Below, piece after piece: positions 9,710-52,144 of a DNA stretch of 64,000 bases. Source of the DNA: Candidatus Wolfebacteria bacterium (GTDB lineage: Bacteria > Patescibacteriota > Minisyncoccia > UBA6257 > UBA9933); contig JACPIO010000025.1 in the NCBI GenBank assembly GCA_016188075.1, positions 3,579 through 67,578 on the forward strand, read 5' to 3'. The stretch's first letter is position 1. Every line of letters begins with the position of its first letter. The notes under the pieces were generated by a model. It was not told the origin of the DNA. It saw only the letters and a program-made list of their open reading frames with translations, and searched no databases. The position numbers and the translations under genes were made by a program.

Positions 9710-11395
9710 ATGACAGGGAATTGGAGAGTGGCGAGTTTAATTATCATCTTTAGCCTTATCTATTCTTTTTTAATTTTTAATATTTACAATCTCCAGTTCG
9801 AAAAGAGAGTTTACTATTTGAGTTTGGCGGAAGCGCGGGATGAAGCCGGCGGAGTCTTGAAAGCCGAGCGGGGAAATATTTATTTTACCGATAAAAACGG
9901 CACTGCCATTCAGGCGGTTTTGAACAAAGAATATCCGATAATTTACGCCGTCCCCGCTGAAGTTCAGAGAAACGCCGATCAACGCGGATTCGGAACGCGG
10001 ATTTACGCGGAGCAATTAGAAACGATATTGGGTATCTCTGCTTCCGAATTAGAAAAAAAATTAGTTAAACCGAATGACGAATATGAACTTCTTGTCGAGA
10101 AAGCAACCGCCGAGCAGGTGGCGGCGATGAAGAGGTTGGATATTAAGGGTATCTATGTCAAAAATGAATTGCTTCGATTTTATCCCTTTGGCGATTTGGC
10201 GGCGCATCTTTTGGGTTTTGTTTCGCCGGCGAGCGACAAAGAAGACTCGCCTTCCGGGGAGGCGGAGTTTGGTCGGTACGGAGTCGAACTTTATTTTAAT
10301 AAGTTTTTAGCCGGACAGAACGGAACGCTTAAGGACGATAAACTGATTGAATCCGAAAAAGGAAAAGATTTGTTTTTGACGATTGATCGGAGTATCCAAT
10401 CCGAAGCCGAAGAAATTCTGAAAAATTTGGTTCAAGAAAAAGAAGCGGAGGCAGGGACGGTCATCGTCGAAGAGCCGAAAACCGGGAAAATTTTGGCCAT
10501 GGCTAATTTTCCCAATTTTGATCCAAATAATTATTCCGGATTTGGGGTGGGTAAATTTTTAAATCCGGCCACGGAGGCGGTTTACGAACCGGGTTCGATT
10601 TTTAAGATATTCACGATGGCCGCCGGCATTGACAGCGGGAAAATTACGCCGGAGACGGAATACACGGATACCGGCAGCGTTACTTTTAACGGGAAAACAA
10701 TAAAAAACTGGGATTTGAAAGCGCACGGCAGGCAAACCATGACCGGCGTGATTGAGCAATCCATAAACACCGGCGCGGTTTTTGCCGAAAGAAAAACCGG
10801 TCATGATATTTTTTATACTTACTTGAATAAATTCGGGTTAAGCGAGCCGACTAAAATTCAGTTGCCCGGAGAAGTGTCGGGCAATCTTAAGAATCTAAAA
10901 AACGGCCGCGACATTGATTTTGCAACGGCCTCTTTTGGCCAGGGAGTTGCCGTTACGCCGATTGAATTGGTGAACGCCGCCTCCGTCGTAGCCAATGGAG
11001 GGCTTCTTATGAGACCTTACATCTTGAAAAATGAAGAGCCGAAAGTAGTGCGCCGAGTTTTAAAAGAAGAGACCAGTCGAGCTGTTCGAGAAATGATGAC
11101 TTCGGCAGTTGTAAAAAACAAATTGGCGGCCATTCCCAATTATAACGTGGCTGGGAAAACCGGAACCGCTTTTGTGCCGGATTTCAAACGCGGCGGATAT
11201 ACCGATGAAGTTATAAACACCTACATTGGTTTTGCTCCGGCTTCGGATCCCCGTTTTATAATTTCCGTAAAGTTGGAAAAGCCGGCCGGTAGTCCTTTGG
11301 CTGGCCAGACCGTGGTGCCGGCTTTCCGGGCGCTCGCCGAATTTATTTTGAATTACTACAATATACCGCCGGATAAATTAGACCAACATCAATGA
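9710..11395 (+). CDS. ftsI: peptidoglycan transpeptidase FtsI / PBP
   Basis: 561 aa; SxxK (GSIFKIF), SxN (SINTGAV) and KTG(T) motifs. Confidence 0.85.
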   Translation: MTGNWRVASLIIIFSLIYSFLIFNIYNLQFEKRVYYLSLAEARDEAGGVLKAERGNIYFTDKNGTAIQAVLNKEYPIIYAVPAEVQRNADQRGFGTRIYAEQLETILGISASELEKKLVKPNDEYELLVEKATAEQVAAMKRLDIKGIYVKNELLRFYPFGDLAAHLLGFVSPASDKEDSPSGEAEFGRYGVELYFNKFLAGQNGTLKDDKLIESEKGKDLFLTIDRSIQSEAEEILKNLVQEKEAEAGTVIVEEPKTGKILAMANFPNFDPNNYSGFGVGKFLNPATEAVYEPGSIFKIFTMAAGIDSGKITPETEYTDTGSVTFNGKTIKNWDLKAHGRQTMTGVIEQSINTGAVFAERKTGHDIFYTYLNKFGLSEPTKIQLPGEVSGNLKNLKNGRDIDFATASFGQGVAVTPIELVNAASVVANGGLLMRPYILKNEEPKVVRRVLKEETSRAVREMMTSAVVKNKLAAIPNYNVAGKTGTAFVPDFKRGGYTDEVINTYIGFAPASDPRFIISVKLEKPAGSPLAGQTVVPAFRALAEFILNYYNIPPDKLDQHQ

Positions 11396-12637
11396 ACTGG
11401 TTTTTGAATAAATTGGCAAGGATTACGGTTTGGCGTTTTGAGCCGAAGATTATTGCTGTTACCGGAAGTGTCGGCAAAACCGCGACCGTGGAGAAGATCG
11501 AAGCGGTTTTGAAGCACCCGGTTTTTTTGTCAGAGAGAGATAATCGCGGTGCCACTCGCGCTCTTGGGCGATTGGCGCGATGAAGATTTAGGGCTCTTAA
11601 CTTTTAACGACTTGCCCGTCTCCCAAAAAATTAAAAAAATATTTTTTTGGACTAAGGTGATTTTAACGCCAATCATTAAATTGTTTTTTCGGCTTCGAAA
11701 AAAACATCAAGAGATTTTGATTCTCGAATACGGACTTCAGAAAAACTTGAAGATAAGAGATTTTTTGGAAATGGCCAAACCCGATATCGGAGTAGTGACG
11801 GCTGTTGGCGATATTCCGGCGCATGTCGAATTTTGGAGCGGCCCTTGGGCAGTCGCCCGAGAAAAGTCAAAAGTGGTTGAATGCCTCGACTCCGATGGTT
11901 TTGCCGTGTTGAATTTTGATGACGAGGCGGTTTTGGAGATGAAAAAGCGAACAAGGGCTAGAATCATTACTTTTGGTTTTGGCCCAGGGGCGGATGTAAG
12001 AATTATGAATTTTGAAAATCAATTCGAGAATCCCGAGTCCTACGGAATCAATTTTAAGATTGGCTACGGCGGGAGCGTGGTGCCGGTCAAGCTTCGTAAT
12101 GTTTTCGGCAAGGCCGAAGCGTATGCCGCCTCCGCGGCAGTTTGCATTGGTTTGATTTTTGATTTGAACTTGGTTGAAATTGCCGAAGCCTTGCAAAGTT
12201 CGCATTCCCTTTATTCCGGCAAGAGGATTTTAAAAGGAGTCAAAGAAACGGTGATTATTGAAGATTTGAGCGATGTTTCGCCTTTGTCAATGGATGAAGC
12301 CATTCATGTTTTGGGAGAATTTAGAGACCGAAGGAAAATCGCGGTTTTGGGAGATATGCTTGATTTGGGTAAGTGGAGCATTGAAGCTCACGAAGCCATC
12401 GGCCGGCTCACGTCCACGACCGTTGATCTTTTGTTTACGGTCGGGCCCCGGGGAAAATTAATAGCCGAGGGAGCCCGAGAAGGGGGTCTATTCAAAAATA
12501 AAATTTTAAGCTACGATACTTCGGTCGAGGCTGGAAGAAAACTTCAAGATTTATTAAAGAAAGGGGACGCGGTTTTGATAACCGGAGCCAGAGAGTTGAG
12601 AATGGGAGAGGTGGTGGAAGAAGTAAAAAGTAATTAG
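11392..12637 (+). CDS. murF: Mur ligase, MurF-like, interrupted by a frameshift at a T7 homopolymer (11522-11528)
   Basis: ORF 11392-11583 carries the P-loop TGSVGKTAT; reading continues in another frame from about 11511 (…EIIAVPLALL… then Mur middle/C-terminal domains, LGDMLDLG); the two frames overlap across the T7 run. Confidence 0.65.
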
Positions 12638-12660
12638 TAATTGGTAATTAGGATTAATTA
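12631..12660. repeat. 8-bp periodic AT-rich array (taattagtaattggtaattaggattaatta)
   Basis: related arrays at 59908-59970 and, reverse-complemented, at 23831-23855. Confidence 0.5.
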
Positions 12661-12712
12661 CTATGGCGCTTTCGTCTAGTGGTCAAGTCCCGATGTAGTC
12701 AAAAATTTATGC

Positions 12713-12785
12713 GCCGCCATCGTCTAGTGGCCTAGGACACTAGGTTCTCATCCTAGAAACCGGGGTTCGATTCCCCGTGGCGGTA
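12713..12785 (+). tRNA. tRNA-Glu (anticodon CUC)
   Basis: cloverleaf: acceptor gccgcca/tggcggt, D-arm tcgtctagtggcctaggac, anticodon loop ttCTCat, T-arm cgggg-ttcgatt-ccccg; matches bacterial tRNA-Glu. Confidence 0.85.
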
Positions 12786-12845
12786 CATAAATTTTTGATA
12801 CTACATCGAGGATCCTCGATACGACATCAAAATTAAAATTTTGGT

Positions 12846-12905
12846 CGTATCGGGAGACATCACGTTCTCAACGTGGGGACCCGGGTTCAAATCCCGGTGA
12901 GAGCA
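12846..12905 (+). other. 5'-truncated tRNA-like sequence (D-arm onward, anticodon loop ttCTCaa, good T-arm and 3' acceptor tgagagc-a) lacking a matching 5' acceptor strand
   Basis: well-formed anticodon and T arms but nothing adjacent pairs with the 3' acceptor; a separate tRNA 5'-fragment-like sequence (gcgctttcgtctagtggtcaag) lies at 12665-12690. Confidence 0.4.
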
Positions 12906-13002
12906 CAAATTTTTATTACAGTTGATTTCCGTTTTTTATTTTGCTACTTTTAGGCAGGCGGTTTTGGCCGGATTTTTTAGTTTTTAATTTTGTGTTTCCA
13001 AT

Positions 13003-13170
13003 AGCGTCGCTTGCTCGCCGAGCCCCCATCCCGTGCGGCAACTCGTGGACCCAGCCGGAGCTCGGTCTCGCCGAAGGCGAGTCCGGCTGGGGAGCGGTAG
13101 GGACGGCGAGCCGCTGGAGCGAGCCGAGCCCGGTGCCGTCAGGGATGCGGGGCTCGGCGCCAGGCCCACT
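13003..13170 (+). ncRNA. GC-rich, highly structured ~170-nt element upstream of atpB (candidate small RNA or cis-regulatory leader)
   Basis: GC island in an AT-leaning region; long-range closing helix cgccgagcccccatccc / gggatgcggggctcggcg plus internal hairpins; ORFs here overlap on both strands and read as nonsense. Confidence 0.45.
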
Positions 13171-13191
13171 TAGTCAAACATTACATTAGCT

Positions 13192-13935
13192 ATGTCCGAA
13201 ATTTCCATTAAAGCCGAAGAAATTTTTCAAATCAGCGGTTGGCCAGTAACTAACGCGGTGCTTTTATCGGCGCTTGCCGTTTTGGTTATTCTCGGCGCCT
13301 CCCTTCTTTTGCGGGGGAAGCTGTCGCTTTTACCCGGAAAGTTTCAGCTGATTTTCGAATTTTTGATTGAAGAAATTTTAAAGCTAATGGATGCGGTTTT
13401 GGGTTCGCGCCGGCTTTCCTTAAAATATCTGCCGTTTGTTGCCACGATCTTTTTATTTATTTTGACATCCAACTGGCTTGGACTTTTGCCGGTGATCGGG
13501 CCAGTTGGAATTAAGACCGCGCATTCGAATCCCGGCCTTGTGCCGCTTTTCCGATCGCCGGCGAGCGATTTGAATTTTACCATTGCTTTGGCTGTGATCT
13601 CGGTTTTGTCCGTGAACTTTTTGGCGATCACTGCCTTGGGTTTTAAAAAACATTTTTCCAAATTTTTTACTTTTAGGGATCCCATTCTCTCTTTCACCGG
13701 CCTACTTGAATTTATTTCCGAGTTTGTTAAGATTATATCGTTCTCTTTTCGATTATTCGGAAATGTTTTTGCCGGGGAGGTGCTCCTCGTCATTGTCGGA
13801 TTTTTAGTGCCTTATTTCCTGCCCCTGCCTTTTATTTTTCTGGAAATCTTTGTCGGGTTTATCCAGGCGTTCATTTTTTCGATGTTGACACTGGTTTTCA
13901 TTGGAATGGCGACCAACGAAGAACCGGCTCACTAA
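13192..13935 (+). CDS. atpB: F0F1 ATP synthase subunit a
   Basis: 247 aa polytopic membrane protein at the head of the atp operon. Confidence 0.85.
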   Translation: MSEISIKAEEIFQISGWPVTNAVLLSALAVLVILGASLLLRGKLSLLPGKFQLIFEFLIEEILKLMDAVLGSRRLSLKYLPFVATIFLFILTSNWLGLLPVIGPVGIKTAHSNPGLVPLFRSPASDLNFTIALAVISVLSVNFLAITALGFKKHFSKFFTFRDPILSFTGLLEFISEFVKIISFSFRLFGNVFAGEVLLVIVGFLVPYFLPLPFIFLEIFVGFIQAFIFSMLTLVFIGMATNEEPAH

Positions 13936-26394: not shown

Positions 26395-26491
26395 CTTTTA
26401 TCATTGACTTTTTAATTTTTTTCTTATACCCTGTATTTAATCGGCAAGTCAGGCGATTACTGTCGTGCCTCACTATCGTTCGGCGCAAAAA

Positions 26492-26572
26492 AATACGAAT
26501 TTAACACGAAAAATACGAATGCCACGAATAAATTGATTCGTATCATTCGTGTAATTTCGTAGATTCGTATTA
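26492..26572. repeat. palindromic TACGAA/TTCGTA periodic array inserted in the P3 stem-loop of RNase P RNA
   Basis: lies between P3 strands gtcgtgcctc (26463-26472) and gaggcacga (26593-26601), making P3 about 135 nt. Confidence 0.6.
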
Positions 26573-26816
26573 TGTAAGTGGCGAGCGGCAGCGAGGCACG
26601 ATGGAGGAAAGTCCGGACACTCTCCCGATGAAAATCGGGATAAACAAGTAGCGGCTAACAGCCGTCGTCCAGCTTAGCGGGATAGAGGTGCGAGCAGTGA
26701 CGTCCCGAGACGAAAGTCGAGGGAGAGCCCGATCCCAAGCTTGACGGCTTAACTCTGCGATAGGGATAAGAAAGCAGAGGTGAAACGGCTAAATCCTTAC
26801 TGGGTGCAAGGTTGTG

Positions 26817-26844
26817 CCGAGCACATAACGCTTTATGTGCTCGG
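26817..26844. repeat. palindrome ccgagcacataacgc-tttatgtgctcgg inside rnpB (second copy at 56353-56380)
   Basis: near-identical 28-bp hairpin upstream of rpmA. Confidence 0.6.
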
Positions 26845-27009
26845 AATACCGCTAGAGCCTAAGAGTAATCGACGGCCCAGATAAATTATCGCCACCCCCC
26901 ACCACTTTTGAAAAAAAGTGGTGGGGGGACAGAATCCGGCTTATGACTTGCCGATTTTTTGTTTGTTAAACTAATTAGTGATTTTCGCCCATTGCGCTAT
27001 AATTTAAAA

Positions 27010-50998: not shown

Positions 50999-52144
50999 TC
51001 ACATTTCAACGGGTTTCCCGCCTTCAATCTGAATTTTTTTCAATTTCAACACCGACGCGCGAGTCGGTGCTCCGACTCCTTCGGGACGTCGGAGTTTTCC
51101 GTTAATTAATTCCGCCTCCAAAATTTTTATTCTTTGAGGTCCACCCTTCGACGGGCTCAGGGTAAATACTCCTGGTTCGGGATTTAAAGCCCGAATTTTC
51201 CGCTCTATTTGAATCGCGATTTCTCCGCCCTCGCTCCGCGCGTTTTCTAAATCCGCTGGTTCAATAAAAGCATCTTCAGTTTTGAATTTTTTGGTATAGG
51301 TGGCTCGCGATTCGTCTTGGGGTGTGAGGTTCAATCTCCCAAATATTGACTCTAATTCATGAGGAGATTGAACCTCCCGAAATTGATTCAAAAATTCCAC
51401 CAGTAAATCGCCGCCCAATTCCGCCAATTTCCGCATTAGCGATTCATAATTCATAATTCCTAATTCATAATTCTCAAGCGCTTTTTGCGCGAGAACTGGT
51501 CCGTGATCCACTTTTTCATCCATTAAAAAAAGCGTTACGCCGGTTTCTTTTTCGCCGTTCAAAATCGCGGACTGAATAGGGGAGGGGCCGCGGTATTTTG
51601 GCAAGAGCGACGGATGAATTCCGATTGAGCCGAGCCGCGGAATCTCCAAAATTTCTTTGGGAAGAATTTTCGCGTAAGCGGCAACTACAAAGAAATCATA
51701 TTCCCGATATAATAAATTTGCCGTGGGTCCGGAATGGTTCGGGTTCGGGATTGACACCCGAGACCCCGGGGCTCGATTCCCCGCGGATCCACGGTCTTCT
51801 GATTTATCCACAAGGGGGCTTGACAACTGGTCATCGTTTAATATACTAATGTTAGGTGTCAATCCCGGATTTCTCGAATCATTCGAGGTTTCGGCAAAAG
51901 CCCCGTTTAAAGCGGGGTTTTTGGTTTTTAAATTTTCTGGTTGCCAAACCGGGATATCGTATTTTTGAGCAATAATTTTGGTAGGGGGTGATGTCAGTAT
52001 CTTTTTTCTTCCCACTGGCCGGTCGGGATTGCAAACAACCACTCCCGGCGCGAAACCGGCTTTAATCAATCTCTCCAAAATAATGGCGGCGAACTCAGGA
52101 GTACCGAAGAATACGAAATTTGGATTACGAAAATACGAAATCAT
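50999..52144 (-). CDS. fmt: methionyl-tRNA formyltransferase carrying two in-frame inserts
   Basis: FGTPEFA, HPSLLPKYRG, C-terminal domain; 381 aa versus about 315; about 65-aa GC-rich insert between the VWQP and VVAAYAKIL blocks (DNA 51721-51925); ENYELGIMNYES encoded by the 8-bp array. Confidence 0.85.
   Translation of the reverse strand: MISYFRNPNFVFFGTPEFAAIILERLIKAGFAPGVVVCNPDRPVGRKKILTSPPTKIIAQKYDIPVWQPENLKTKNPALNGAFAETSNDSRNPGLTPNISILNDDQLSSPLVDKSEDRGSAGNRAPGSRVSIPNPNHSGPTANLLYREYDFFVVAAYAKILPKEILEIPRLGSIGIHPSLLPKYRGPSPIQSAILNGEKETGVTLFLMDEKVDHGPVLAQKALENYELGIMNYESLMRKLAELGGDLLVEFLNQFREVQSPHELESIFGRLNLTPQDESRATYTKKFKTEDAFIEPADLENARSEGGEIAIQIERKIRALNPEPGVFTLSPSKGGPQRIKILEAELINGKLRRPEGVGAPTRASVLKLKKIQIEGGKPVEM
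51442..51473. repeat. 8-bp periodic array (attcataattcataattcctaattcataattc) in-frame in fmt
   Basis: same family as 19166-19206. Confidence 0.6.
51721..51925. mobile_element. ~200-bp GC-rich MITE-like element inserted in-frame in fmt, containing a plus-strand tRNA-like fold and 12-bp inverted repeats
   Basis: IR gggattgacacc (51747-51758) / ggtgtcaatccc (51855-51866); tRNA-like at 51725-51791 (acceptor gggtccg/cggatcc, anticodon arm tcggg-attgaca-cccga, T-arm cgggg-ctcgatt-ccccg, no D-arm); hairpin + T-run ccccgtttaaagcggggttttt at 51901-51922. Confidence 0.55.

What the first reader, a model, noticed from the sequence alone, without database searches (positions are those of the whole stretch)
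12660..12910. tRNA-Glu(CUC) nested inside inverted repeats between a tRNA 5' fragment and a 5'-truncated second tRNA-like gene
A canonical tRNA-Glu sits at 12713-12785. It is bracketed by an 18-20-nt inverted repeat (cgatgtagtcaaaaattt at 12691-12708; aaatttttgatactacatcg at 12789-12808). Upstream of the left repeat is a tRNA 5'-half-like sequence (gcgctttcgtctagtggtcaag). Downstream, after two more palindromes (cgaggatcctcg; cgatacgac...gtcgtatcg), lies a tRNA-like 3' portion (12846-12905). This has a proper D-stem, an anticodon arm also reading CUC, a T-arm and a 3' acceptor, but no 5' acceptor strand that pairs with it. It could be a tRNA gene disrupted by insertion of a palindrome-rich segment carrying a duplicated tRNA-Glu. 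It could also be a permuted or split arrangement, or an assembly artefact.
Basis: seen in the sequence. Interest (0 to 1): 0.5.

Follow-up and report, generated by a model that had tools for sequence, protein, structure and literature searches.

The report
Replacement tRNA-Glu inside a broken tRNA-Glu
In this candidate-phyla-radiation bacterium, the glutamate tRNA gene that normally follows murF has been broken by a 168-base palindrome-rich insert. The insert carries a complete working copy of the same tRNA, and similar "tRNA inside tRNA" arrangements recur in a few related lineages.

Summary
The window comes from a Candidatus Wolfebacteria genome. In about 70 related genomes, murF is followed by one intact tRNA-Glu(CUC).

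Here that slot holds four parts:
- a 23-nt tRNA-Glu 5' piece (12665-12687);
- a 168-nt insert (12688-12855) with inverted ends TCCCGAT/ATCGGGA;
- inside the insert, an intact tRNA-Glu(CUC) (12713-12785) on a 24-bp leader-trailer helix, plus a second hairpin;
- the last 50 nt of another tRNA-Glu(CUC) (12856-12905).

The two outer pieces do not pair (2 of 7 acceptor pairs). They match two different natural alleles, so the outer gene is a chimeric relic, not a split or permuted tRNA.

Nested versions occur in three or four other lineages (L014, L092, L005, probably L011). Each has its own complementary flanking repeats. One narrow clade shows three states: resident gene only, replacement plus relic, and replacement only.

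Best reading: a repeat-bounded replacement tRNA cassette inserted into the resident gene, which is now decaying. How the cassette moves is unknown. I found no BHB motif and no group I intron. No recombinase lies at the locus, and the two recombinase types seen next to related loci have no homologue in the window. Assembly artefact is unlikely. Interest is moderate.

The parts
12659..12664 (+). TACTAT, a possible -10 box just upstream of the 5' fragment. This is an inference.
   Evidence: Read from the sequence. The consensus scan did not call it. The orthologous flank TTAATTA is also present upstream of the L005 tRNA.
12665..12687 (+). Relic 5' piece of the resident tRNA-Glu(CUC). It comprises acceptor 5' strand GGCGCTT, U8 C9, D-stem 5' strand GTCT and D-loop AGTGGTCAAG.
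   Evidence: It is 20/23 identical to the 5' end of the single tRNA-Glu of L184/L190 and 18/23 identical to the inner tRNA. See, family D1.
12688..12855 (+). 168-nt insert in the D arm, between tRNA positions 22 and 23. Its tips are inverted, TCCCGAT...ATCGGGA. The 22-nt terminal arms match at 16 of 22 positions.
   Evidence: (pair I2). L120 has an insert at the same site with the same tips.
12688..12712 (+). Left arm, which is the leader of the inner tRNA. It pairs with 12786-12812.
   Evidence: 24-bp duplex, -26.8 kcal/mol. It also appears in the minimum-free-energy fold and (pairs I1, I21).
12713..12785 (+). Intact, canonical tRNA-Glu(CUC). This is presumably the functional gene. No CCA is encoded.
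   Evidence: ARAGORN. Rfam 61 bits. R1 88.9 bits. The acceptor pairs 7/7.
12786..12812 (+). Right arm, which is the trailer of the inner tRNA and is complementary to the left arm.
12813..12855 (+). Second hairpin. TCCTCGATACGAC pairs with GTCGTATCG-GGA, at -19.2 kcal/mol. Its left edge forms the palindrome CGAGGATCCTCG with the end of the right arm.
   Evidence: (pairs I3, I19). L120 has two tandem hairpins at the same site.
12856..12905 (+). 3' part of a different tRNA-Glu(CUC) allele. It comprises D-stem 3' strand GAC, the anticodon arm (12860-12876, anticodon CTC), variable loop GGAC, the T arm (12881-12897), acceptor 3' strand TGAGAGC and discriminator A.
   Evidence: Rfam partial hit, 31.8 bits. 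R1 42.7 bits. The intact L103 tRNA has the same acceptor, GCTCTCA/TGAGAGC.
12906..12916 (+). Trailer CAAATTTTTAT.
   Evidence: The same string follows the tRNA in L005 and precedes the right repeat in L014. See, family D4.

Best explanation
The locus is the murF-linked tRNA-Glu(CUC) slot of a Candidatus Wolfebacteria genome in a replaced state. A short cassette bounded by inverted repeats lies inside the D arm of the resident tRNA-Glu(CUC) gene. The cassette consists of a leader, a complete tRNA-Glu(CUC) and a trailer complementary to the leader, followed by a second hairpin.

The inner gene now supplies tRNA-Glu(CUC). The outer pieces are a decaying, chimeric relic that cannot fold into a tRNA.

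Shown here:
- the anatomy of the locus;
- the intact ancestral state in relatives;
- recurrence of nested cassettes with lineage-specific complementary repeats;
- resident, replaced-plus-relic and replaced-only states within one narrow clade.

Inferred:
- The insert arrived as a discrete unit, either by transposition or site-specific recombination through its inverted ends, or by uptake of foreign DNA.
- In the uptake case, recombination would have used the conserved tRNA blocks as homology arms. A left crossover in TCGTCTAGTGG would explain why the 5' piece is host-like while the 3' piece carries a foreign acceptor.
- In a read-through transcript, the 24-bp leader-trailer helix presents the inner tRNA for RNase P and 3' processing. 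It may also be an RNase III site.
For: 1. Taxon and synteny. MurF is 100% identical to a Candidatus Wolfebacteria protein. The locus lies between the dcw cluster and the atp operon.

2. Ancestral state. One intact tRNA-Glu(CUC) lies close downstream of murF, directly after it in the closest relatives L003-L005, in about 70 relatives.

3. Insert site. Removing 12688-12855 restores a tRNA-Glu D arm of normal length. L120 has a tRNA-less insert of two hairpins at the same position, with the same TCCCGAT/ATCGGGA tips.

4. Recurrence.
- L014 and L092 have an intact inner tRNA-Glu(CUC) between outer halves, and those halves pair 7/7.
- L005 keeps the right junction and the 3' half of the resident gene.
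- L011 keeps the left junction.

5. Repeats are specific to nested loci.
- The flanking repeats differ in sequence between lineages, yet each pairs best with its own partner. Own pairs give -33.5, -36.1 and -26.5 kcal/mol; cross pairs give -12 to -18.
- The 65 control loci have a median of -12.3.
- The repeat motif occurs only at nested loci among 68 intact genes.

6. Replacement caught in the act, among genomes with 84-88% MurF identity to L005.
- L191 has only the resident allele.
- L005 has a different intact allele plus the 3' half of an L191-like gene, 35/41 identical and starting at U35.
- L184 and L190 have only the replacement allele.

7. Chimeric outer gene in the window.
- The canonical acceptor gives 2/7 pairs.
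- The 5' piece is closest to L184/L190, and the 3' acceptor equals that of L103.
Against: - No recombinase or transposase lies at the locus. The 64-kb window has no homologue of the L005 serine recombinase or the L182 rve protein.
- The window holds no second copy of the repeat motif. No copy of the cassette was found away from a tRNA-Glu gene, so mobility is not demonstrated.
- There is no clear target-site duplication. At most, an AG dinucleotide is shared at both junctions.
- L014 and L092 share a complex architecture: an extra D-arm hairpin and a conserved stretch GGCGCCAsGTTCCTTr. Their MurF identity is only about 53% and their nearer relatives lack the arrangement. This fits either horizontal spread or long-term retention. 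Long-term retention would imply that the outer RNA has some function.
- No close relative of the window organism exists in any collection. The order of events in this lineage therefore cannot be reconstructed.
Confidence: 0.55

Rival explanations
1. The locus is a scar field left by serial site-specific integrations and decay of larger integrative elements, or by tandem duplication followed by deletion. On this view it is not a discrete small cassette. The fragments are displaced att-site pieces, and the inverted repeats are leftover recombinase half-sites.
For: - tRNA genes are the classic targets of integrative elements, which split the gene and leave a displaced fragment (Islander paper, PMC4383910, found).
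- L005 has a large serine recombinase gene next to the 3' fragment. L182 and L183 have an rve gene about 700 nt after the tRNA.
- Other loci carry simple 3' or 5' duplicates of this tRNA: L010, L095 and L030.
- In L010, the displaced 3' end pairs better with the 5' strand than the resident 3' end does.
- All three units in the window end with A + CAxAAATTT (families D2 and D4).
Against: - Only 60 nt separate the intact tRNA from the 3' piece, and no element body or integrase remains.
- The 3' piece is not a direct repeat of the inner tRNA (34/50 identical).
- Ordinary tDNA islands carry only a partial tRNA copy. They do not leave a 5' fragment plus a complete inner gene between matched inverted repeats.
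Confidence: 0.22
2. The nested arrangement is a functional RNA architecture. The outer halves, held together by the repeat helix after RNase P and RNase Z release the inner tRNA, would form a two-piece or spliced tRNA-like RNA. Alternatively they would act as a processing scaffold for the inner tRNA.
For: - The L014 and L092 outer acceptor stems both pair 7/7, although 4 of 7 pairs differ on both sides between them. One anticodon-stem pair is also swapped.
- Their minimum-free-energy folds keep the outer cloverleaf.
- L014 has a near-consensus promoter (TTGACC-16-TATAGT) just upstream of the outer 5' end.
- The window region folds far better than shuffles.
Against: - In the window, the canonical acceptor gives 2/7 pairs. 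The shifted 7/7 pairing is expected in 7% of shuffles and excludes the D stem.
- In L014 and L092, the break lies inside the anticodon, between positions 34 and 35.
- There is no BHB motif and no group I intron.
- Presence or absence flips within a clade of 84-88% MurF identity. This fits relics better than a conserved RNA.
- In L011, a strong promoter for the inner tRNA lies inside the left repeat. The helix would then be absent from that transcript.
Confidence: 0.1
3. The left part of the arrangement is an assembly chimera. Tips of contigs from different strains or species would have been joined through the shared tRNA-Glu sequence.
For: - The independent Logan contig L001 starts at 12711, so the 5' fragment and left arm are seen only in this assembly.
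- Two Logan contigs of the L014 organism also stop at the left side of its cassette.
- tRNA sequences are shared between co-occurring CPR genomes.
Against: - The left arm is complementary to the independently confirmed right arm over 24 bp. A chimeric join would not produce this.
- The same architecture appears in three other assemblies from NCBI and JGI.
- The left flank (the end of murF plus the TTAATTA motif) is the expected orthologous context.
Confidence: 0.05
4. 12843-12905 is a complete but D-arm-less tRNA-Glu(CUC) with its own 5' strand, GGTCGTA.
For: R1 aligns 12843-12905 end to end at 42.7 bits, with GGTCGTA-TC-G at the 5' end and 5/7 acceptor pairs.
Against: - The acceptor has two mismatches and no D arm is present. 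No bacterial precedent is known (own knowledge).
- ARAGORN does not call it.
- The same bases form the stable second hairpin.
Confidence: 0.03

Closest known systems
Genomic islands and prophages integrated into tRNA genes (tDNA islands; Islander database, PMC4383910)
   Same: The target is a tRNA gene. The insertion splits it, the incoming DNA restores the tRNA function, and a displaced fragment of the old gene stays beside it. The locus is a hot spot: about 9 of roughly 70 related loci carry fragments.
   Different: - The incoming DNA is 168 nt with no integrase or cargo.
- It carries a whole tRNA gene rather than the matching 3' segment.
- It is bounded by inverted repeats, not direct repeats.
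- Fragments remain on both sides.
- The insertion sites are D-arm 22/23 and anticodon 34/35.
Archaeal and algal disrupted tRNA genes: BHB introns at non-canonical sites, split and permuted tRNAs (PMC3218864, PMC4033280)
   Same: A tRNA is interrupted at a non-canonical position. Complementary sequences next to the break bring the two parts together.
   Different: - The host is bacterial.
- There is no bulge-helix-bulge geometry at the junctions.
- The outer acceptor does not pair in the window.
- The intervening sequence contains a complete tRNA of the same anticodon.
Group I introns in Patescibacteria tRNA genes (PMC13011429)
   Same: The phylum is the same, and both are interrupted tRNA genes that standard finders miss.
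   Different: - There is no group I intron signal in Rfam.
- The insert, apart from the tRNA, is only about 95 nt.
- The insertion is in the D arm here and at 34/35 in L014-type loci, not at 35/36.
- No tRNA-Glu case or nested tRNA is mentioned in that paper.
MITE-like palindromic elements (Correia, ERIC-type). This comparison rests on my own knowledge and is not tested against a database.
   Same: The element is small, non-coding and bounded by terminal inverted repeats. It folds into long hairpins when transcribed.
   Different: - The window holds no other copy.
- There is no clear target duplication.
- It carries a functional tRNA gene.
- It is found only inside tRNA-Glu(CUC).
Leader-trailer processing stems of rRNA operons (RNase III substrates). 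This comparison rests on my own knowledge.
   Same: A helix of about 24 bp, formed by leader and trailer, directly abuts the mature ends of the inner RNA.
   Different: Cleavage is untested. In L011, the predicted promoter lies inside the left arm.

Membership tests
Canonical bacterial tRNA gene | Full cloverleaf with a paired 7-bp acceptor stem, called by ARAGORN and Rfam RF00005 | tested here: met
   Applies to the inner gene, 12713-12785. ARAGORN calls it. Rfam scores 61 bits, R1 scores 88.9 bits, and the acceptor pairs 7/7.
Canonical bacterial tRNA gene | The same criteria, applied to the outer pieces 12665-12687 plus 12856-12905 | tested here: not met
   Rfam gives only a partial hit, model positions 8-63, 31.8 bits. 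The canonical acceptor gives 2/7 pairs. ARAGORN gives no call on the genomic sequence.
Integrase-mediated tDNA island | An integrase gene inside the inserted DNA, next to the tRNA | tested here: not met
   The insert is 168 nt with no ORF, and the neighbouring genes are murF and atpB. The window has no homologue of the L005 serine recombinase or the L182 rve protein. Tyrosine integrases were not searched for specifically.
Integrase-mediated tDNA island | The displaced fragment is a direct repeat of the matching part of the regenerated tRNA (att core) | tested here: not met
   The 3' piece and the inner tRNA 3' part are 34/50 identical. The longest shared run is the anticodon loop GTTCTCA.
BHB-intron, split or permuted tRNA (archaeal type) | Bulge-helix-bulge at the exon-intron junctions: two 3-nt bulges separated by a 4-bp helix | tested here: not met
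   Read from the sequence and the fold. The 5' junction follows a 10-nt unpaired D loop. The 3' junction abuts the intron-intron helix TCCCGAT/ATCGGGA with no bulge.
BHB-intron, split or permuted tRNA (archaeal type) | The exons reconstitute a tRNA with a paired acceptor | tested here: not met
   The window gives 2/7 pairs. This feature is met in the comparators L014 and L092, at 7/7 each.
BHB-intron, split or permuted tRNA (archaeal type) | A splicing endonuclease (EndA) and ligase are encoded in the genome | not testable with these tools
   Only 64 kb of the genome is available.
Group I intron in tRNA | A match to the group I covariance model, with the P1-P9 core | tested here: not met
   No Intron_gpI hit at E <= 10 in 12400-13200.
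MITE-like element | Terminal inverted repeats | tested here: met
   The tips match 7/7, and the 22-nt arms match at 16/22 positions (pair I2).
MITE-like element | Multiple copies in the genome and a target-site duplication | tested here: inconclusive
   The 64-kb window has no other copy. The rest of the genome is not available. Only a shared AG dinucleotide is seen at the junctions.
RNase III-type processing stalk | A leader-trailer helix of about 20 bp or more abutting the mature ends | tested here: met
   24 bp, -26.8 kcal/mol. The helix is present in the minimum-free-energy fold.
RNase III-type processing stalk | Cleavage by RNase III | not testable with these tools
   This needs RNA end mapping or an in vitro assay.

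The most novel reading that the evidence does not exclude
The cassette may belong to an undescribed class of self-compensating selfish tRNA cassettes in CPR bacteria. Each would be a unit of about 150-170 bp, consisting of a promoter or leader, tRNA-Glu(CUC) and a trailer, bounded by inverted repeats. It would home specifically into resident tRNA-Glu(CUC) genes, at D-arm position 22/23 or anticodon position 34/35. It would destroy the resident copy while supplying its own, which makes the host dependent on it. It would spread between lineages, possibly through DNA uptake and recombination using the flanking tRNA halves as homology arms.
Probability: 0.25. Interest if true: 0.75.

Novelty: new variant of a known kind. 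Interest (0 to 1): 0.45.

Why it matters
- If the cassette reading holds, tRNA genes in reduced CPR genomes are turned over by small non-coding inserts that carry a replacement copy of the gene they break. This is a minimal form of the "split the tRNA and restore it" strategy used by genomic islands.
- It would also explain odd tRNA fragments and missed or duplicated tRNA calls in CPR assemblies.
- For annotation, the practical conclusion is simple. This locus has one functional tRNA-Glu(CUC), at 12713-12785. The flanking tRNA-like pieces are relics.

Tried and rejected
- **Exact or degenerate pattern of the 3' piece.** The pattern TTCTCAA-N9-CCGGGTTCAAATCCCGGTGAGAGC gave no match in GTDB species genomes or in JGI metagenomes. 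No close relative of this population is available.
- **Exact-protein look-ups.** MurF and FtsI of the window are not on record. The left junction could therefore not be confirmed independently.
- **Viral contigs.** The L014-type junction pattern gave 0 hits. A looser pattern gave 13 hits, roughly what I would expect by chance for a pattern this loose (own estimate, not computed), and none lies next to a tRNA-Glu.
- **Genome-wide REP-like repeat.** The motif occurs nowhere else in the window. The TCCCGAT...ATCGGGA hairpin at 26623 belongs to RNase P RNA.
- **Trans partners for either outer piece.** GCTCTCA and AAGCGCC occur at chance frequency and never in a tRNA context.
- **Shifted acceptor register GCTTTCG/TGAGAGC.** It pairs 7/7 but was rejected as chance. 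It arises in 7% of shuffles and uses a 7-mer also present in the native tRNA of relatives (L005).
- **ARAGORN on artificially spliced constructs.** It calls tRNA-Glu for 225 of the 528 junction combinations tried, so it does not discriminate.
- **Other readings.** Group I intron, BHB intron and terminator readings were rejected.
- **Close relatives of L014.** None is above 63% MurF identity. Selection on its outer halves could therefore not be tested.

Full report
**What is there**

- ARAGORN and Rfam call one canonical tRNA-Glu(CUC) at 12713-12785/6.
- Rfam reports a second, partial tRNA match at 12842-12897. It scores 31.8 bits, covers model positions 8-63 and lacks an acceptor.
- The inner tRNA sits on a leader-trailer helix of 24 bp, 12688-12712 paired with 12786-12812, at -26.8 kcal/mol.
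- A second hairpin follows at 12813-12855, at -19.2 kcal/mol.
- Upstream, 12665-12687 is a tRNA-Glu 5' piece: acceptor strand, U8 C9, D-stem strand and D loop. It is 18/23 identical to the inner gene.
- The whole 253-nt region folds at -106 kcal/mol, z = -8.55.

**Context**

The flanking genes are rsmH, ftsI and murF upstream, and the F-type ATP synthase operon downstream. MurF is 100% identical to a protein of a Candidatus Wolfebacteria MAG. The next relatives are only 57% identical or less. The host is therefore a CPR (Patescibacteria) bacterium with no close relative in the collections. DNA patterns taken from the 3' piece found nothing in GTDB species genomes or JGI metagenomes.

**Is it an artefact?**

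An independent Logan assembly (L001) reproduces 12711-13200, including the inner tRNA, the right arm, the second hairpin and the 3' piece. That contig starts at 12711, so the 5' fragment and left arm are seen only in this assembly. However, the left arm is complementary over 24 bp to the independently confirmed right arm. The same architecture also occurs in other assemblies (see below). I consider an artefact unlikely.

**The ancestral state**

I fetched the murF neighbourhood from relatives through exact-protein look-ups and two MurF-profile scans. I searched these loci with ARAGORN and with a tRNA-Glu covariance model, R1, built from 28 of the genes. About 70 loci carry one intact tRNA-Glu(CUC) close downstream of murF, directly after it in the closest relatives (L003-L005). 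The window's 5' flank (TTAATTA) and the trailer after its 3' piece (CAAATTTTTAT) match those of the L005 tRNA. The outer pieces therefore occupy the orthologous slot.

**The insert**

Removing 12688-12855 joins ...GTCT AGTGGTCAAG to GAC A.... This gives a D arm of normal length. The insert has inverted tips, TCCCGAT...ATCGGGA, and its terminal arms match at 16/22 positions.

L120, whose MurF is 36% identical to the window's, has a 5' tRNA-Glu fragment with an insert at the same place, between positions 22 and 23. That insert is made of two short tandem hairpins, the second being TCCCGAT-TTCAC-ATCGGGA, and it carries no tRNA. The window has the same two-hairpin layout, with the tRNA in the loop of the first hairpin.

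**The outer pieces are not partners**

- In the canonical register, GGCGCTT pairs with TGAGAGC at only 2 of 7 positions.
- Folding and ARAGORN on spliced constructs use a register shifted by 3 nt (GCTTTCG), which pairs 7/7.
- That shifted register excludes the D stem and arises in 7% of shuffles. It uses a 7-mer also present in the native tRNA 5' end of L005. I treat it as chance.
- The 5' piece is closest to the single tRNA of L184/L190 (20/23). The 3' piece has the acceptor of the intact L103 tRNA, GCTCTCA...TGAGAGC.
- The outer gene is therefore a chimera of two alleles and cannot fold as a tRNA.

**Recurrence elsewhere**

L014 (Candidatus Liptonbacteria) and L092 (a JGI contig) each have an intact tRNA-Glu(CUC) flanked by inverted repeats. 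It lies inside another tRNA-Glu(CUC), this time between anticodon positions 34 and 35. Their outer halves pair 7/7. L005 keeps the right repeat and the outer 3' half, starting at U35. L011 keeps the left junction.

The repeats differ between lineages (CGATGTAGT..., CCCGTAT..., CCTGCACT...) but stay complementary.
- Each leader pairs best with its own trailer: -33.5, -36.1 and -26.5 kcal/mol, against -12 to -18 for cross pairs.
- These three loci are the most stable of 68. The 65 controls have a median of -12.3 and a best value of -24.8.
- The repeat motif is found at no other intact murF-linked tRNA-Glu.

**Replacement caught in the act**

The following comes from genomes with 84-88% MurF identity to L005.
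- L191 has only the allele GCCCCTA...TGGGGGC.
- L005 has a different intact allele, GCCGCTT...AAGCGGC. It is followed by the right repeat and by the 3' half of an L191-like gene, 35/41 identical.
- L184, L185, L186 and L190 have only the GCCGCTT allele, with no repeat and no fragment.

These are three stages of a gene replacement. The state also flips over short evolutionary distances, which fits relics better than a conserved structured RNA.

Other loci show simpler partial duplicates. L010 and L095 have 3' ends and L030 has a 16-nt 5' end. Mobile-element genes lie nearby in L005 (large serine recombinase) and in L182/L183 (rve). The locus is thus a recombination hot spot.

**Mechanism**

- Shown: the anatomy, the intact ancestral state, recurrence with lineage-specific complementary repeats, and the three states.
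- Inferred: the insert is a discrete cassette bounded by repeats. The inner gene is the functional one. The chimeric outer gene arose because incoming DNA recombined within the conserved block TCGTCTAGTGG, leaving a host 5' end and a donor 3' end. In a read-through transcript, the leader-trailer helix presents the inner tRNA for processing.
- Unknown: the enzyme that moves the cassette. No recombinase lies at the locus, and neither recombinase type seen next to related loci has a homologue in the window. The window has no second copy of the motif.

**What argues for caution**

L014 and L092 share an extra D-arm hairpin and a conserved stretch, GGCGCCAsGTTCCTTr, although their MurF identity is about 53% and their nearer relatives lack the arrangement. 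Part of that stretch looks like the -35 box of a promoter for the inner tRNA. The scan supports this in L011 (TTGCCC-17-TATAAT). In L014 and L092 the scan calls no promoter there; I read weaker candidates by eye. Their outer stems differ by compensatory changes. That pattern could mean either independent insertions into different resident alleles or selection on the outer RNA. I could not separate these two, because L014 has no relative above 63% MurF identity.

**Comparison with known systems**

- The closest principle is integration of genomic islands into tRNA genes, which splits the gene, restores it and leaves a displaced fragment (PMC4383910). The differences here are the tiny non-coding insert, a complete tRNA as cargo, inverted rather than direct repeats, and fragments on both sides.
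- It is not an archaeal-type disrupted tRNA. There is no BHB motif, the acceptor is unpaired and the host is bacterial (PMC3218864, PMC4033280).
- It is not one of the group I introns recently described in Patescibacteria tRNAs (PMC13011429).

**Verdict**

The recurrent cassettes bounded by repeats are a new variant of tRNA-targeted insertion. Interest is moderate.

Noticed in passing
window 26441-26958 (+): RNase P RNA, class A. It scores 76.1 bits (E = 2.8e-23), below the Rfam gathering score of 100, so the default scan missed it. It is 518 nt against a 367-nt model, so it carries large insertions. It contains the hairpin TCCCGATGAAAATCGGGA at 26623-26640.
   Followed up: partly
window 13009-13165 (+): A very GC-rich, long imperfect hairpin of about 160 nt lies between the tRNA locus and atpB. 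Its minimum free energy is -103.8 kcal/mol, z = -3.65. It has no Rfam match and is overlapped by an 82-aa TTG ORF (12941-13189). It has two SNPs relative to the Logan contigs. Its function is unknown.
   Followed up: partly
window 11395-12637 (+): MurF here is only 362 aa, with a GTG start at 11549. Homologues are about 410-450 aa, and the match begins at about residue 120 of the murF model. The N-terminal domain may be missing, frameshifted or mis-started.
   Followed up: no
window 12711; L014 3121 (= L188/L189 contig ends): Independent Logan contigs break at the left side of the inner-tRNA cassette in both organisms. L001 starts at window 12711. Two contigs from different runs both end at L014 ...GGTGCGGGGCAG. 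This may reflect a branch in the assembly graph, that is, an alternative allele in the population or a shared tRNA sequence. Both organisms occur in the same sample series (SRR121133xx-SRR121134xx).
   Followed up: partly
L005 5476-7017 (-); L182/L183 4564-5286 (+): A large serine recombinase gene lies directly after the tRNA-Glu and 3' fragment in L005. An rve-family integrase gene lies about 700 nt after the tRNA-Glu in L182 and L183. The murF-linked tRNA-Glu therefore appears to be an integration hot spot in these bacteria.
   Followed up: partly
L013, L039, L040, L042, L056, L059, L067, L109, L113, L115, L124, L126, L141: In these relatives, the murF-linked tRNA-Glu(CUC) lies on the strand opposite to murF. 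The gene has therefore been inverted or re-inserted repeatedly.
   Followed up: no
window 51725-51791 (+): A weak match to the tRNA-Glu model R1 (17.9 bits, GC 0.67). It is not called by ARAGORN or by Rfam at the gathering score.
   Followed up: no
L007, L009, L014, L015, L016, L040 and others: Many of these tRNA-Glu(CUC) genes have a D loop enlarged by 2-3 nt (AGCCTGGTCTAG). Most have a G1-U72 wobble at the top of the acceptor stem.
   Followed up: no
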